From an uncultured Pelagibacteraceae bacterium (lineage in GTDB: Bacteria > Pseudomonadota > Alphaproteobacteria > Pelagibacterales > Pelagibacteraceae), in contig CACKFA010000005.1 in NCBI GenBank assembly GCA_902599335.1, forward strand, positions 39,420-103,419: a DNA stretch of 64,000 bases. The letters run 5' to 3'. Position 1 is the first letter of the stretch; each line of letters opens with the position of its first letter. Below the pieces are notes generated by a model that searched no databases, was not told the DNA's origin, and saw only the letters and a program-made list of their open reading frames with translations. A program made the translations under genes and the position numbers. This document shows positions 37,171 through 39,794 of this stretch, one piece after another.

Positions 37171-37265
37171 AGTTAAATTAGTATTAATAACAAAAAATTT
37201 GCAATAATTAATTTAAGTAATAAATATTTTTTTTGATAAAAAAATAATGTAAGATAAACACGTTG

Positions 37266-37278
37266 GTTTTCCAACTAT
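37266..37278 (+). repeat. 13-bp direct repeat, right copy, overlapping the probable ssrA -10 region (TATAAC 37276-37281)
   Basis: Identical to 34553-34565. Confidence 0.7.
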
Positions 37279-37287
37279 AACGATAAA

Positions 37288-37522
37288 TGAATTTCGTAAT
37301 AACCATTGCGGACGTGGGGGCAGTACCCACCACCTCCACCATTAAAAAATTATGGGGGTGAAATAGATTCGACGGGTGTCTAAAGGCTATTCTTTCGTTC
37401 GGGATTGTTCCACCGCAACGGGCTATTTTATAATTGCTAACGAAAGTTATGCACTTGCTGCCTAATTAACTAAGTTAATTAAGCAAACGGGGTTTGGGGC
37501 ACCTGGCAACAGAACGCCCCTT
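37288..37522 (+). ncRNA. ssrA: Permuted (two-piece) tmRNA; 5' boundary approximate
   Basis: Acceptor piece ends GTGGG-GGCAGTA-CCCAC-CACCTCC-ACCA (CCA at 37341). A 12-nt spacer precedes the coding piece, which starts GGGGGTG at 37354 (G3:U70 pair). Tag reading frame 37436-37465 encodes ANESYALAA*. Confidence 0.95.
37484..37522 (+). repeat. attL-like copy of the island direct repeat (ssrA 3' end)
   Basis: 37496-37522 is identical to 39752-39778 (27 bp); the match extends to 39 bp with 4 mismatches. Confidence 0.9.
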
Positions 37523-37578
37523 CTCATTATTAAAAAAGTTTTAATTTTCAACGTAGATTTAAATATACAACTTAGTTA

Positions 37579-37615: not shown

Positions 37616-37816
37616 TTAAATTATATCGCAAGATTTTAGAATAATTGATCCAAATATTATAATTGGAACAATACCCCAAATTGCATCCATGTCTTTTTCT
37701 TTCTTTTTTTGTTTTGCAAGTTCAGAAACTGTAGGGTCAGGTTTTCCACAATGAGGACAAGCTTTGGCTGATCTTGAAACTTCTTTTCCACACTCTAAAC
37801 ATTTTGCTAAAGCCAT
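37616..37816 (-). CDS. Zinc-ribbon protein with C-terminal TM helix
   Basis: CLEC-x10-CPHC, basic linker, AIWGIVPIIIFGSIIL. Confidence 0.8.
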   Translation of the reverse strand: MALAKCLECGKEVSRSAKACPHCGKPDPTVSELAKQKKKEKDMDAIWGIVPIIIFGSIILKSCDII

Positions 37817-37820
37817 AAAA

Positions 37821-37934
37821 TTATTTCCTCATTAGAGATAATAGTAATATTAAAATTGGAATACAAATTATAAATGTTGCTGCATCAGGTGAAACACCGA
37901 GAATATCCGCCACTAAATCTCTTATTGCACTCAT
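37821..37934 (-). CDS. 37-aa single-TM microprotein (not in ORF track)
   Basis: MSAIRDLVADILGVSPDAATFIICIPILILLLSLMRK*. AAGGA lies upstream and the ORF exactly fills the gap (2 nt and 4 nt) between its neighbours. Confidence 0.7.
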   Translation of the reverse strand: MSAIRDLVADILGVSPDAATFIICIPILILLLSLMRK

Positions 37935-37936
37935 AT

Positions 37937-38479
37937 TTAATTTCCTTCCATACAATTTTTATATATTCTTTTTCCAATAGCAACTGTATCAGCGTTATCT
38001 TTACGTCTTAAACACTGTTTTCTTTTTTCAAAATAATTTAAAGGGTTTAAATCACTCAGCGCATCTCCAACAGAGTCCACAGCAGAACCAACGTTGTCTG
38101 ATAAGGAATTTTCATATGGCTTTTGATATTTACATTCATATCCCGCTGTCTTTCCGTAAGTATAAGCTGATGAATTACCAAATTTCCAAGTATATTCTTT
38201 ATATGGATTTACAAATGTACGTCCCAATCCAACACTAAAAACACTTTTAGATGATTTTTTTATTTTAATATCTGAAATTTTATCTCCATCAGAATCATTA
38301 ACGTATACTCTAGTAATTCTAACAAACTTAGAGCCATTATTTTTAAATTTAAAATTTAGAAGATTTGTTTTGTTATAATCTTTAGACCAGCTAAAATCGA
38401 TATCATTCTTACAACCTGCTTCAGCAATGTTATTAAATAGTAGAGTTATAAATAAAGTTACAAAAATATTTCTAATCAT
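37937..38479 (-). CDS. Secreted Cys-containing protein, family A (long form)
   Basis: Signal peptide ending AEA. The C-terminal 35-aa module is shared with 38771-39055. Confidence 0.85.
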   Translation of the reverse strand: MIRNIFVTLFITLLFNNIAEAGCKNDIDFSWSKDYNKTNLLNFKFKNNGSKFVRITRVYVNDSDGDKISDIKIKKSSKSVFSVGLGRTFVNPYKEYTWKFGNSSAYTYGKTAGYECKYQKPYENSLSDNVGSAVDSVGDALSDLNPLNYFEKRKQCLRRKDNADTVAIGKRIYKNCMEGN

Positions 38480-38482
38480 TTA

Positions 38483-38764
38483 TTAAGAAACCTTATCAAA
38501 ACATTTTTTGGCTAAAGGTCTTATTTCGTTTATCATATAATCATAGCCTTTATCAACCAAAGCATCTAATTGTTTATCAGTATATTTTCCATCAAACTCC
38601 TTCGCAACACAATTGCAATAGGCTTTAGCAAAACTTTTGGACTCACCATCATTTACTGAAGCAGTATAACAAGTTTGACGTTCATATAGCCTTCTCTTCT
38701 CACTTAACGCAAAAGCATTTCCAGCAAAAACTATTAGTATTAAAATTAATATTATTTTTCTCAT
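38483..38764 (-). CDS. Secreted 4-Cys protein, family B
   Basis: Signal peptide ending AFA; C-x17-CxC-x35-C; paralogue of 39055-39342. Confidence 0.85.
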   Translation of the reverse strand: MRKIILILILIVFAGNAFALSEKRRLYERQTCYTASVNDGESKSFAKAYCNCVAKEFDGKYTDKQLDALVDKGYDYMINEIRPLAKKCFDKVS

Positions 38765-38770
38765 TAAATA

Positions 38771-39055
38771 TTATCTGTATTGTTCCATGCATTGTTTATA
38801 AATTTGCTTACCTTGATATACCGTATCAGCTTGATCTCTATATCTTGAACATCTTTTACGTTTTTTAAAATAATCTGTTGGACTAAGATTGTAATCACTT
38901 GTTTTACACTTAATTTTAGTAAAAATTGATTTGTTACACCTTTCAGCCTCTTCCATTCGTAATTCTCGTAGAGTTTTTGCTTCACTACTTGAATAGAATG
39001 AGAAAATAAATGTAAATAATAATACAGATAATGAAACTTCCAATAATCTTTTCAT
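38771..39055 (-). CDS. Secreted 4-Cys protein, family A (short form)
   Basis: Signal peptide ending SEA; shared C-terminal module; TAATG coupling to the upstream gene. Confidence 0.85.
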   Translation of the reverse strand: MKRLLEVSLSVLLFTFIFSFYSSSEAKTLRELRMEEAERCNKSIFTKIKCKTSDYNLSPTDYFKKRKRCSRYRDQADTVYQGKQIYKQCMEQYR

Positions 39056-39342
39056 TAATCTCCTGGTGCTCTAGCATTTACATTACAATAATCTACAGCA
39101 AAGCTGAACATCTCATTTTGCTTCTGTTGACTCATCAAAGCAGCTCTTTCAAGTTGTGTAATAGTATATTTATCAGTAACCATTATCGTAACACATCTGC
39201 AGTATTGTTTGGCTCTTTTGCTACCAAGATGTTGTGAGGTTTCTAAGCATCCTTGGTAAATTTCATTTTGATATTCATTTAATGCAAAACCTATGTTGGG
39301 CCATATTAATATTAGGAATATTACAGATAATATTTTTTTCAT
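39055..39342 (-). CDS. Secreted 4-Cys protein, family B
   Basis: Signal peptide ending GFA; C-x15-CxC-x35-C; ATGA coupling to the upstream gene. Confidence 0.85.
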   Translation of the reverse strand: MKKILSVIFLILIWPNIGFALNEYQNEIYQGCLETSQHLGSKRAKQYCRCVTIMVTDKYTITQLERAALMSQQKQNEMFSFAVDYCNVNARAPGD

Positions 39343-39629
39343 TTAAATTGCTTAAGACCAAGTTCTGTATACGTTTCTCTGTATTCAGCACTACAATCTC
39401 CCCAAATTTGATCGTCTGTTCTGTCATTCCATGCTATTATCATACCATCAAAACAAGTTCCCATCACACTAACATTTGTTTTTCTCACATAACCAAGAAA
39501 AATATCATCTGTGCAATCTCCTAAAACTGAATTGCCCGAATCCATTTCCCAACCAATACATGGAACACCGCTCCAAGATGTATTAACTGAGAATAAACTT
39601 AAAAATAATATTGATAATATCTTTCTCAT
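39339..39629 (-). CDS. Secreted protein with three 20-aa GxC repeats
   Basis: Signal peptide followed by PCIGWEMDSGNSVLGDCTDD / IFLGYVRKTNVSVMGTCFDG / MIIAWNDRTDDQIWGDCSAE. Confidence 0.8.
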   Translation of the reverse strand: MRKILSILFLSLFSVNTSWSGVPCIGWEMDSGNSVLGDCTDDIFLGYVRKTNVSVMGTCFDGMIIAWNDRTDDQIWGDCSAEYRETYTELGLKQFK

Positions 39630-39700: not shown

Positions 39701-39739
39701 TAAAATTTATATATTTATTGAAAAATAACTGGCTATAAT

Positions 39740-39778
39740 CAAACAAAGTTCGGGGCACCTGGCAACAGAACGCCCCTT
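39740..39778 (+). repeat. attR-like copy of the island direct repeat
   Basis: CAAACAAAGTTCGGGGCACCTGGCAACAGAACGCCCCTT, followed by further T residues. Confidence 0.9.
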
Positions 39779-39794
39779 TTACAAATTAAAAATT

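What the first reader, a model, noticed from the sequence alone, without database searches (positions are those of the whole stretch)
37937..39055. Family A: constant 35-aa C-terminal two-Cys module on unrelated N-terminal domains
Seen: LNPLNYFEKRKQCLRRKDNADTVAIGKRIYKNCME (38050-37946) vs LSPTDYFKKRKRCSRYRDQADTVYQGKQIYKQCME (38887-38783), 22 of 35 identical and ungapped. Many third positions differ, consistent with an old duplication under selection. The N-terminal parts are unrelated: a ~100-aa beta-rich two-Cys domain plus an amphipathic linker (SLSDNVGSAVDSVGDALSDL) vs a ~30-aa two-Cys segment. Inference: a modular variable-head/constant-tail architecture in which the basic tail docks on a partner or the envelope.
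Basis: partly seen in the sequence, partly recalled or inferred. Interest (0 to 1): 0.7.

Follow-up and report, generated by a model that had tools for sequence, protein, structure and literature searches.

The report
Constant two-cysteine tail on exported Pelagibacter proteins
Two small exported proteins of a marine Pelagibacter (SAR11) genome share a previously undescribed 36-residue two-cysteine C-terminal module that, in ocean metagenomes, sits at the end of about twenty different N-terminal "heads" swapped by recombination exactly at the module boundary; its function is still unknown.

Summary
The 180-aa and 94-aa ORFs share 22 of 35 C-terminal residues without gaps (BLASTP E 2e-14; shuffles reach at most 10 of 35).

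The module (NPxxYFxKRKxC-x19-CM) matches nothing in Pfam, NCBIfam, PHROGs, PADLOC or PDB. AlphaFold2 predicts a confident helix-turn-helix hairpin.

An exhaustive profile search found 43 clusters at 50% identity. A DNA pattern scan found 71 marine contigs. Together they give 159 distinct proteins. The module is always at the extreme C-terminus, with C-x19-C invariant, on about 20 head classes: Sec-soluble, lipoprotein, membrane-anchored and an Ig-like beta-sandwich.

In five contigs DNA homology to the window collapses over the head and resumes at 38047-38051, the module start, so heads are exchanged at a fixed locus. dN/dS is lowest in the tail.

All attributable sequences are Pelagibacter; none is viral.

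The genes lie in a seven-gene operon of small exported and membrane proteins, inside a tmRNA-linked flexible island. A genes are usually followed by "family B" genes.

The modular reading is supported. The docking function is inferred and untested.

The parts
37937..38479 (-). Family A, long form (180 aa): signal peptide (aa 1-21, 38417-38479), Ig-like beta-sandwich head with 2 Cys (aa 22-122, 38114-38416), acidic disordered linker (aa 123-143, 38051-38113), C-terminal module (aa 144-180, 37940-38050), stop 37937-37939
   Evidence: ORF. AF2 model: strands over residues 27-118 at pLDDT about 86, linker pLDDT about 33, tail helices 146-161 and 166-178 at pLDDT about 81. Orthologues in metagenomes and one NCBI MAG. 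The AxA cleavage site is inferred from the sequence.
37940..38050 (-). C-terminal module of the long form (LNPLNYFEKRKQC-x19-CMEGN)
   Evidence: DNA homology to L012, L048, L050, L054 and L072 resumes at 38047-38051.
38771..39055 (-). Family A, short form (94 aa): signal peptide (aa 1-26), helical 2-Cys head CNKSIFTKIKCKT (aa 27-56, 38888-38977), C-terminal module (aa 57-94, 38774-38887)
   Evidence: ORF. 37 homologous clusters. AF2 gives tail helices 59-74 and 79-91 at pLDDT 88-95. Metatranscriptome contigs cover 38705-38940 in 4 of 4 runs.
38483..38764 (-). Family B1 (93 aa): exported 4-Cys (C-x17-CxC-x35-C) helical protein, immediately downstream of the A short form
   Evidence: A genes are followed by a B-labelled gene in 51 of 87 cases not at a contig edge. 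That label includes some false signal-peptide hits: 56 of 65 B ORFs are true B.
39055..39342 (-). Family B2 (95 aa), paralogue of B1 (38% identity)
   Evidence: 90% identical orthologue directly upstream of the long form in L007.
39339..39629 (-). First gene of the operon: exported 96-aa Cys protein ('GxC')
   Evidence: Orthologues head the same cassettes in L037, L038, L074 and L078.
37821..37934 (-). 37-aa single-helix membrane peptide, 2 nt after the long-form stop
   Evidence: Conserved ORF; 23 ORFs carry this label across the loci.
37616..37816 (-). 66-aa N-terminal zinc-ribbon protein with a C-terminal membrane helix, last gene of the operon
   Evidence: Pfam Zn_Ribbon_1, E 4.5e-6. 50 related ORFs of 30-261 aa next to A genes.
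37223..37556 (+). Permuted alphaproteobacterial tmRNA gene (ssrA) bordering the island
   Evidence: Rfam RF01849, 223 bits; ARAGORN.
39736..39792 (+). Direct repeat (82% over 57 nt, exact 25-nt core) of the tmRNA 3' end at 37480-37536; marks the far border of the 2.26-kb island
   Evidence: The same core repeat occurs three times near the tmRNA of the other genome that carries the family.

Best explanation
SHOWN. The shared 36 residues are a real, autonomous and previously undescribed protein module. The motif is NP-x2-Y-F-x-K-R-K-x-C-x4-D-x-A-D-T-V-x2-G-K-x2-Y-K-x-C-M, with C-x19-C invariant. It is always at the extreme C-terminus and is predicted to form a basic helix-turn-helix hairpin. It occurs only in small proteins that are sent across or anchored in the inner membrane of Pelagibacter (SAR11). 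These include Sec-exported soluble forms, lipoproteins made of little more than the module, type-II membrane-anchored forms, and one class with an Ig-like beta-sandwich head. The genes sit in tightly packed operons with family B (an exported 4-Cys protein), zinc-ribbon membrane proteins and a 37-aa membrane peptide. These operons lie in strain-variable islands next to tmRNA or tRNA genes. Heads are exchanged by recombination, with breakpoints at the module start and in the signal-peptide codons. The tail is under the strongest purifying selection.

INFERRED. The two tail cysteines form an intradomain disulfide that staples the hairpin in the periplasm. The hairpin is the constant element that binds one conserved periplasmic or envelope ligand. 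The best candidate is the genetically linked family B protein or an anionic envelope component. The N-terminal parts set location (soluble, lipid-anchored, membrane-anchored) or add a second, diversifying binding surface. The set would then belong to the strain-specific envelope gene pool of SAR11, plausibly shaped by phage or other surface-directed pressure.
For: - **Paralogy:** BLASTP E 2e-14; shuffles reach at most 10 of 35.
- **No known family:** Pfam, NCBIfam, PHROGs, PADLOC and PDB sequence profiles, and Foldseek of both models against PDB, give nothing.
- **Structure:** tail helices at pLDDT 81-95 in two independent models.
- **Spread:** 43 clusters at 50% identity among 1.84 billion representatives. 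71 metagenome contigs carry 92 ORFs, up to 3 paralogues per contig.
- **Module constancy:** in 159 distinct proteins the spacing is C-x19-C in all, and 0-8 residues follow CM. 146 of 159 have an N-terminal hydrophobic signal.
- **Cysteine parity:** head Cys counts are 0 (25 proteins) or 2 (105 proteins), which fits separate intradomain disulfides.
- **Head diversity:** about 20 head clusters against 13 tail clusters, and one tail subtype sits on several heads.
- **Breakpoints:** identity to L012, L048, L054 and L072 is 80-90% through B1, collapses over 38470-38051, and is 73-100% from 38050 on. In L072 the tail is 96-100% identical while the flanks are 63-90%.
- **Selection:** dN/dS for tail, head and signal peptide is 0.10, 0.19 and 0.73 in the short form. 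In the long form it is 0.19 (tail), 0.38 (head), 0.35 (linker) and 0.75 (signal peptide).
- **Independent head:** the beta head also occurs alone (L097:10605-10964). A related N-terminal half carries a membrane anchor in place of the tail (L049:4573-5151; hhalign 95% over 65 columns that include the signal peptide).
- **Sister tail:** a C-x19-CM tail on membrane-anchored heads occurs in Ca. Pelagibacter sp. HIMB1321. P0076 combines that head type with the canonical tail.
- **Linkage:** an A gene is followed by a B-labelled gene in 51 of 87 cases.
- **Host:** contigs are attributable to Pelagibacter. There are 0 hits in IMG/VR and in 50,697 phage records.
- **Island:** tmRNA plus a direct repeat of its 3' end. 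SAR11 islands of this kind are described in PMC11796062.
- **Transcription:** metatranscriptome contigs cover the short form.
Against: - No binding partner was tested, and no complex could be modelled with the tools at hand.
- Family B is far more widespread than A. Full-length B hits occur in more than 30 same-genus genomes, including a copy at a core locus. The canonical tail is in 2 of 301 family genomes. One genome has A beside a zinc-ribbon gene with no B next to it. B is therefore not an obligate, dedicated partner.
- Module-only lipoproteins show that the tail can act without any head, which weakens the 'dock for a variable head' reading.
- The disulfide is inferred from parity and location only.
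- Phage-related pressure is conjecture. No defence-system or phage family matched.
- The RNA evidence is low depth and cannot exclude DNA carry-over.
Confidence: 0.5

Rival explanations
1. The tail is itself the effector, not a dock. It would be a small disulfide-stapled cationic hairpin that inhibits or titrates a periplasmic target, for example a cell-wall hydrolase or phage lysin, a transporter component, or a metal ion held by Cys/Met. The N-terminal parts would be only spacers, anchors or decoys.
For: Lipoproteins and exported forms exist that are little more than the module (P0080, P0082, P0073). The tail is the most constrained part. Conserved residues are mostly polar or charged surface positions (KRK, DxADTV, GK, YK). 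The module occurs free, lipid-anchored or membrane-anchored.
Against: There is no similarity to any known inhibitor or metal-binding family. It does not explain why a folded Ig-like domain or conserved 2-Cys helices are repeatedly fused to the module, or why heads are exchanged exactly at its boundary.
Confidence: 0.25
2. A and B are toxin-immunity (bacteriocin-like) pairs. A would be a cationic, membrane-active disulfide peptide and B its periplasmic immunity protein, arrayed in tandem in mobile islands as in polymorphic toxin loci.
For: Tandem alternating A-B arrays with up to 3 A paralogues per contig. The tail has a median net charge of +5. The genes lie in islands bordered by tmRNA or tRNA genes, sometimes with integrase genes or fragments. 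B subtype correlates with the subtype of the upstream A head (adjusted mutual information 0.74).
Against: The polarity is the reverse of polymorphic toxins: the constant part is C-terminal and the variable part N-terminal. A Sec signal peptide delivers the protein only to the producer's own periplasm, and no dedicated exporter or double-glycine leader is present. Lipid- and membrane-anchored forms cannot diffuse to a target cell. B also exists without A at a core locus in many genomes. The correlation is confounded by shared ancestry of whole cassettes.
Confidence: 0.12
3. The genes are remnants of a prophage or satellite (morons such as superinfection-exclusion or lysis-associated proteins), and are not part of the host's own envelope biology.
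For: The island is bounded by a duplicated tmRNA 3' end. One contig carries an integrase-like ORF (Pfam Phage_integrase, 26.2 bits, just below the 27.1 cut-off) with A, zinc-ribbon and peptide genes. Other islands hold an integrase N-terminal fragment or a T5orf172 gene.
Against: The module pattern gives 0 matches in 2.9 million IMG/VR contigs, and the long form gives no tblastn match in 50,697 phage records. No PHROG matched at a convincing level. No structural or replication phage genes lie in any of the contigs.
Confidence: 0.1
4. The similarity is a chance or compositional match, or the ORFs are not real genes.
For: The genome is AT-rich (about 29% GC locally), and the proteins are short and lysine-rich.
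Against: E 2e-14, with shuffles reaching at most 10 of 35. There are 159 distinct homologues with invariant Cys spacing. dN/dS is well below 1. Structure predictions are confident. Metatranscriptome contigs cover the short form.
Confidence: 0.01

Closest known systems
tRNA/tmRNA-linked flexible genomic islands of SAR11 (gMED population; Haro-Moreno et al. 2025, PMC11796062) and the exported-protein-rich 'metaparalog' pool (bioRxiv 10.64898/2026.10.07.757358)
   Same: The island borders a tmRNA gene and carries a partial repeat of it. There is no integrase in the window. Gene content varies between strains, and Sec-exported proteins of unknown function are over-represented.
   Different: In the passages I searched, those papers treat islands and paralogue families in general. 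I found no mention there of this module, the A-B gene pairing or head exchange at a module boundary. I did not read them in full.
Polymorphic toxin / bacteriocin-immunity cassette arrays
   Same: Tandem arrays of small paired genes in mobile islands. A constant module is joined to exchangeable parts, with recombination at the junction.
   Different: The constant part is C-terminal, not N-terminal. Export is by Sec signal peptide, lipobox or membrane anchor only. No toxin domain or exporter was found, and the 'immunity-like' family B also exists alone at a core locus.
Disulfide-stapled helical hairpins such as twin-Cx9C (CHCH) proteins of the mitochondrial intermembrane space
   Same: A small helix-turn-helix unit in an oxidising compartment, with Cys on both helices.
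   Different: There is one Cys pair with C-x19-C spacing, not two Cx9C motifs. There is no sequence or Foldseek match. The module is bacterial and always C-terminal.
C-terminal sorting or anchoring modules (PEP-CTERM, GlyGly-CTERM, T9SS CTD, Braun lipoprotein C-terminal Lys)
   Same: A constant C-terminal element on proteins with diverse N-terminal parts.
   Different: There is no C-terminal hydrophobic helix, no conserved terminal Lys and no beta-sandwich CTD. 0-8 variable residues follow CM. Heads are often only 10-30 residues, so there is little 'cargo' to sort.
Small Ig-like periplasmic proteins and lipoproteins (ApaG, DUF1425/YcfL, Cj0090), for the long-form head only
   Same: Foldseek's top hits share a beta-sandwich of about 100 residues.
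   Different: All hits have E > 1e-3, TM-score below 0.35 on the query and 8-18% identity. This is a generic fold resemblance, not family membership.

Membership tests
Any curated protein family (Pfam-A, NCBIfam, PHROGs, PADLOC) | Score at or above the family's threshold, or a convincing E-value | tested here: not met
   0 Pfam families at E<=1 for both A proteins and both B proteins. 24 tails scanned singly at E<=5 gave only scattered noise. NCBIfam, PHROGs and PADLOC gave nothing significant.
Any solved structure | Sequence-profile or fold match to a PDB chain | tested here: not met
   Tail profile against PDB: best E 0.29. Foldseek with the short-form model: best E 7.3. Foldseek with the long-form model: generic Ig-like hits only, E >= 1.6e-3.
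Twin-Cx9C / CHCH helical hairpin | Two Cx9C motifs forming two interhelical disulfides | tested here: not met
   A single Cys pair with spacing 19 in all 159 sequences.
Polymorphic toxin-immunity systems | Constant N-terminal delivery region with a variable C-terminal toxin domain | tested here: not met
   The variable part is N-terminal and the constant part C-terminal.
Polymorphic toxin-immunity systems | Cognate small gene immediately downstream | tested here: inconclusive
   A B-labelled gene follows A in 51 of 87 cases, but B also occurs without A at a core locus.
Polymorphic toxin-immunity systems | Toxicity neutralised by the partner | not testable with these tools
   Needs expression assays.
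C-terminal sorting signals (PEP-CTERM, GlyGly-CTERM, LPXTG type) | Short motif followed by a hydrophobic helix and a basic cluster at the C-terminus | tested here: not met
   The tail is polar and basic, is predicted as two amphipathic helices, and has no hydrophobic stretch.
tRNA/tmRNA-linked flexible genomic island of SAR11 | Lies beside a tRNA or tmRNA gene, with a partial direct repeat of that gene at the far border | tested here: met
   tmRNA at 37223-37556. 57-nt repeat at 37480-37536 and 39736-39792, 82% identical with an exact 25-nt core.
tRNA/tmRNA-linked flexible genomic island of SAR11 | Gene content differs between related strains at the same site | tested here: met
   Some contigs lack the long form, some carry other heads, and one lacks the short form and B1. 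The canonical tail is in 2 of 301 family genomes.
Phage or prophage gene | Presence in viral genomes or contigs, or next to phage structural or replication genes | tested here: not met
   0 in IMG/VR by pattern. 0 by tblastn in the phage collection. Neighbours are small exported or membrane proteins.

The most novel reading that the evidence does not exclude
The C-x19-CM hairpin would be the common docking handle of an unrecognised envelope system in Pelagibacter. In it, homologous recombination across the conserved tail and signal-peptide codons swaps head cassettes at a fixed locus. Each strain would then display a different periplasmic or surface specificity, for example against pelagiphage entry. 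This would be a cassette-exchange diversification mechanism for exported proteins in the ocean's most abundant bacterium. Family B, the zinc-ribbon membrane protein and the 37-aa peptide would be its invariant machinery.
Probability: 0.15. Interest if true: 0.8.

Novelty: new variant of a known kind. Interest (0 to 1): 0.5.

Why it matters
SAR11 is the most abundant bacterial lineage in the sea. Its strain-level diversity is concentrated in small flexible islands whose genes are mostly unannotated.

This work defines a new, easily recognised protein module, its domain partners and a conserved gene neighbourhood: A, B, a zinc-ribbon membrane protein and a 37-aa peptide. It also shows DNA-level evidence that heads are exchanged exactly at the module boundary.

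That gives a concrete, testable handle on what these islands do. One member of the wider family is in a cultured strain, Ca. Pelagibacter sp. HIMB1321. If the tail proves to be a docking or inhibitory unit, it would be a new minimal periplasmic interaction domain. If not, it is still a new domain family worth a database entry.

Tried and rejected
- **The search for related loci with the tail alignment:** failed because no stretch was conserved enough. I replaced it with a degenerate DNA pattern for DTVxxGKxxYKxCM.
- **Rfam on L004 and L007:** nothing found.
- **Promoter and terminator scan of the island:** at background level, so uninformative.
- **Foldseek of both models:** only generic or no hits.
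- **PDB profile searches for A and B:** nothing.
- **hhalign of A against B:** only the signal peptides align, so the two families are not homologous.
- **PADLOC and PHROGs:** nothing usable.
- **Second-round BLAST labelling of family B:** it pulled in unrelated exported proteins through their signal peptides (clusters 2 and 4-8). The '51 of 87' adjacency therefore slightly overstates true-B adjacency.
- **Rejected: lipoprotein status for the long form.** The AEA|GC site fits signal peptidase I, not a lipobox.
- **Rejected: Braun-lipoprotein-like peptidoglycan attachment.** There is no conserved C-terminal Lys.
- **Rejected: RiPP precursor.** The proteins have a Sec signal and a folded domain.
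- **Rejected: spanin or holin cassette.** There is no endolysin and no phage context.
- **Disulfide geometry:** could not be checked because model coordinates are not returned.
Full report
**Setting.** The window is about 30% GC and lies in a 1.27-Mb, 23-contig genome. I read it as a SAR11 genome because:
- the only other species-representative genome with the module is an 'uncultured Pelagibacteraceae bacterium' single-cell assembly;
- flanking genes of related contigs are 100% identical to a Candidatus Pelagibacter MAG;
- a same-genus genome is named Ca. Pelagibacter sp. HIMB1321 by NCBI.

**1. Observation.** The two ORFs are 37937-38479(-), 180 aa, and 38771-39055(-), 94 aa.
- The quoted peptides are exactly what the DNA encodes.
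- They share 22/35 identical residues without gaps and 70/105 identical bases. Nine of the 22 conserved residues use different codons. The best 35-mer in 200 shuffles had 10 identities.
- BLASTP aligns only this stretch (E 2e-14), and nothing else in the two proteins aligns.
- The genome holds just these two copies.

**2. Anatomy of the two proteins.**
- Both start with a hydrophobic signal sequence followed by an AxA-type site (AEA|GC and SEA|KT). This is read from the sequence; no predictor was run.
- The short form is modelled by AlphaFold2 as all-helical. The tail forms helices 59-74 and 79-91 at pLDDT 88-95.
- The long form is modelled as a beta-sandwich (residues 23-120, pLDDT about 86), a disordered acidic linker (126-147, pLDDT about 33) and the same two-helix tail (146-161 and 166-178).
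- Foldseek places the head only among generic Ig-like periplasmic domains (ApaG, DUF1425, Cj0090), all above E 1e-3. The short form matches nothing.

**3. No known family.** None of the following gives a credible match to the tail or to the neighbouring family B:
- Pfam, including 24 tails scanned singly at E<=5;
- NCBIfam;
- PHROGs;
- PADLOC;
- PDB sequence profiles.

**4. How widespread is the module?**
- Word-indexed searches found 37 and 12 clusters for the short and long forms, all from marine metagenomes or MAGs.
- An exhaustive HMMER search of 1.84 billion representatives, using a profile of both forms, found 43 clusters at 50% identity.
- A degenerate DNA pattern for DTVxxGKxxYKxCM found no IMG/VR viral contigs, one further genome among 185,579 species representatives and 71 marine metagenome contigs. 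Those contigs, together with two contigs fetched for P0075 and P0076, carry 92 module ORFs, up to three per contig.
- tblastn against 50,697 phage genomes found nothing.
- Whole-genome searches found the canonical tail in 2 of 301 genomes of the family and in no other genome among 400 of the class.

The module is rare per genome but diverse in the sea, as expected for flexible-island genes that MAGs tend to lose.

**5. What the module looks like across 159 distinct proteins.**
- It is always C-terminal, with 0-8 residues after CM.
- The spacing is C-x19-C in every case.
- Invariant or nearly invariant positions are P, Y, K, C, D, T, V, G, K, K, C and M.
- Median net charge is +5.
- 146 of 159 have an N-terminal hydrophobic signal. 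Most of the rest look truncated or mis-started.
- The region between signal and module has 0 Cys (25 proteins) or 2 Cys (105 proteins). This parity is what separate intradomain disulfides would give. The disulfide itself is inferred.

**6. The heads.** There are about 20 clusters at 45% identity, against 13 tail clusters at 75%. The types are:
- CxxSIFxKxKCK (the window's short form);
- ACH...HSxFEKLKCKA;
- Cys-free 'IFEKAGDALDDLNP' forms;
- KCKKDx6C forms;
- lipobox forms, including proteins that are essentially lipobox plus module (P0080, P0082);
- signal peptide plus module only (P0073);
- a 214-aa protein with a cytoplasmic region and one membrane helix (P0076);
- the beta-sandwich long form.

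Most short heads share a helix just upstream of the module. The long form's linker end (VGDALSDLNP) resembles the 'AGDALDDLNP' of Cys-free forms.

The beta head is itself modular:
- It occurs alone in HIMB1321 (119 aa, ending just after its second Cys; L097:10605-10964).
- A 192-aa protein with a related N-terminal half ends in a membrane anchor in place of the tail (L049:4573-5151; hhalign 95%, but only 65 columns that include the signal peptide).
- It occurs with a divergent tail (L021:150-686; hhalign 98%).

**7. Head exchange at a fixed locus.** BLASTN of the island against the contigs shows homology running through the short form, B1 and the first codons of the long form's signal peptide. 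It then breaks, and resumes at 38047-38051 in L012, L048, L050, L054 and L072.

A 30-nt identity profile for L012, L048, L054 and L072 shows the same pattern:

| Segment | Identity to the window |
|---|---|
| Up to about 38470 (through B1) | 80-90% |
| 38470-38051 (head) | collapse or gaps |
| From 38050 on (tail and downstream) | 73-100% |

- In those contigs a different, shorter head occupies the slot between B1 and the 37-aa peptide gene.
- In L072 the tail DNA is 96-100% identical to the window, while its flanks are 63-90%. This suggests recent exchange or conversion of the tail itself.
- Other contigs lack the long form altogether: L046, L056, L067, L069, L073 and L080.
- L007 joins B2 directly to the long form.

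**8. Selection.** Nei-Gojobori estimates among orthologues:

| Region | Short form (12 sequences) | Long form (7 sequences) |
|---|---|---|
| Signal peptide | 0.73 | 0.75 |
| Head | 0.19 | 0.38 |
| Linker | not applicable | 0.35 |
| Tail | 0.10 | 0.19 |

All are coding sequences under purifying selection, strongest in the tail.

**9. Neighbourhood.** In the window the genes form one tightly packed minus-strand operon, with gaps of at most 6 nt or overlaps of 1-4 nt. In transcription order they are:
1. exported 96-aa Cys protein;
2. B2;
3. A short form;
4. B1;
5. A long form;
6. 37-aa membrane peptide;
7. 66-aa zinc-ribbon protein with a C-terminal membrane helix (Pfam Zn_Ribbon_1, E 4.5e-6).

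The same families recur around A genes in the metagenome contigs. I labelled 83 B, 50 zinc-ribbon, 23 peptide and 5 'GxC' ORFs. An A gene is followed by a B-labelled gene in 51 of 87 cases not at a contig edge. Some B labels were false signal-peptide hits: 56 of 65 were true B.

- B is an exported helical 4-Cys protein and is not homologous to A.
- B is much more widespread than A. Full-length hits occur in more than 30 same-genus genomes. One copy sits at what looks like a core locus, between a phosphomutase-like gene and an aminomethyltransferase-like gene; those names are my reading of the translations.
- The window's own genome has a third B copy on another contig.
- B is therefore a general Pelagibacter periplasmic family with island paralogues, not a dedicated A partner.

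**10. The island.**
- The operon lies between a permuted tmRNA gene (37223-37556) and a 57-nt direct repeat of the tmRNA 3' end (39736-39792; 82% identical with an exact 25-nt core).
- In the other genome with the family, three copies of that core lie near the tmRNA gene, one of them at its 3' end, and the A gene sits next to one of them.
- Two contigs place the cassette next to the same pyruvate-phosphate dikinase gene as in the window.
- Other contigs show it next to tRNA genes or tRNA fragments.
- One contig has an integrase-like ORF, just below Pfam's cut-off.
- In HIMB1321 the related cassette follows an integrase N-terminal fragment, in an island full of small exported proteins.
[quoted passage not shown] I found no description of this module there.

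**11. A sister tail.** HIMB1321 has, in the slot between B and the 37-aa peptide gene, a 90-aa type-II membrane protein ending ...KKEICINQTRNIKNEFTAKKLYKQCMKR. This is again C-x19-CM.
- Its 15 homologous clusters have a nearly invariant tail and variable cytoplasmic heads with DWNWRKELGIDD repeats.
- P0076 combines that head type with the canonical tail.
- The hairpin therefore works at the periplasmic face whether it is free, lipid-anchored or membrane-anchored.

**12. Expression.** Contigs assembled from four marine metatranscriptomes cover 38705-38940 (short form) at low depth, and one covers the peptide gene. This is weak support, because DNA carry-over cannot be excluded.

**13. Interpretation.**
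- **Shown:** a real, new, autonomous C-terminal module. So far it is restricted to Pelagibacter and to extracytoplasmic small proteins. It is joined to many heads by recombination at its boundary, is under the tightest constraint in the protein, and is embedded in a recurrent cassette in tmRNA/tRNA-linked flexible islands.
- **Inferred:** a disulfide-stapled basic hairpin that binds one conserved periplasmic or envelope ligand. Candidates are family B or an anionic envelope component. The heads would set location or add a diversifying surface, with a role in strain-specific envelope properties.
- **Main rival:** the tail is itself an inhibitor or binder and the heads are accessory. Module-only lipoproteins favour this.
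- **Other rivals:** a toxin-immunity reading is disfavoured by the reversed polarity, Sec-only export, anchored forms and B's independent core copy. A phage origin is disfavoured by the module's absence from viral collections.

**14. Verdict.** The modular interpretation is supported and extended. The docking function is plausible but untested. This is a new domain family and a new, small variation on the known theme of cassette-like diversification in SAR11 flexible islands. It is of moderate interest now, and of high interest if the head-swapping turns out to serve phage or surface specificity.

Noticed in passing
window 37480-37536 and 39736-39792: A 57-nt direct repeat (82% identical, with an exact 25-nt core GGGGCACCTGGCAACAGAACGCCCC) of the tmRNA 3' end brackets the 2.26-kb operon. 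There is no integrase inside. The other genome with the family (L008) has three copies of the core near its tmRNA, one of them at the tmRNA's 3' end, which suggests stacked insertions.
   Followed up: partly
window 38483-38764 and 39055-39342; G000:C10:6838-7104; L094:1489-1839: Family B (an exported 4-Cys protein) is common in the genus. Full-length hits occur in more than 30 genomes, including a copy between a phosphomutase-like and an aminomethyltransferase-like gene. The window's genome has a third copy on another contig. The island copies are paralogues of a widespread periplasmic family that has no Pfam entry.
   Followed up: partly
L097:8841-9113 (Ca. Pelagibacter sp. HIMB1321): A sister family of type-II membrane proteins has a nearly invariant C-x19-CM tail (CINQTRNIKNEFTAKKLYKQCMKR). 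Its variable cytoplasmic heads carry DWNWRKELGIDD repeats. It occupies the same slot between B and the 37-aa peptide gene.
   Followed up: partly
L097:10605-10964 and L049:4573-5151: The beta-sandwich head of the long form also exists as a stand-alone exported 119-aa protein. A related N-terminal half is fused to a C-terminal membrane anchor in place of the tail.
   Followed up: partly
window 37821-37934: A 37-aa single-helix membrane peptide gene starts 2 nt after the long-form stop. 23 ORFs across the loci carry this label (up to 100% identity), and it almost always lies next to A or zinc-ribbon genes. Gene callers are likely to miss it.
   Followed up: partly
L072 (2033-bp metagenome contig): Both contig ends are copies of the tmRNA-end repeat, so the contig equals one island unit. 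This could be an assembly break at a repeat or an excised circle. The two were not distinguished.
   Followed up: no
L058:768-2465 and L058:7579-7869: One contig carries a 565-aa integrase-like ORF (Pfam Phage_integrase, 26.2 bits, E 7.6e-6). By eye it also has a small excisionase-like ORF, together with A, a 244-aa zinc-ribbon membrane protein and the peptide gene. This is a possible intact mobile version of the cassette.
   Followed up: partly
P0054 versus L021:1986-2516 and L043:2110-2646: An 81-aa protein starts with the first 30 or so residues of a neighbouring, unrelated 176-178-aa gene (MKFFPESLVPDPDKKINLNDKDLINKIIEKL) and continues into KCKA plus the tail. It is either a recombinant or an assembly chimera.
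   Followed up: no
L038:1221-1277, L074:216-272, L078:1893-1949: Partial tRNA-like matches (Rfam tRNA, model positions 9-63, 30.4 bits) lie just upstream of the 'GxC' first gene of related cassettes. This suggests that the same cassette type also sits at tRNA-derived repeats.
   Followed up: no
window 37400-37520: In four marine metatranscriptomes the summed contig depth over the tmRNA is thousands-fold above that over the island genes. Many variant contigs are present, as expected for mixed SAR11 populations.
   Followed up: no
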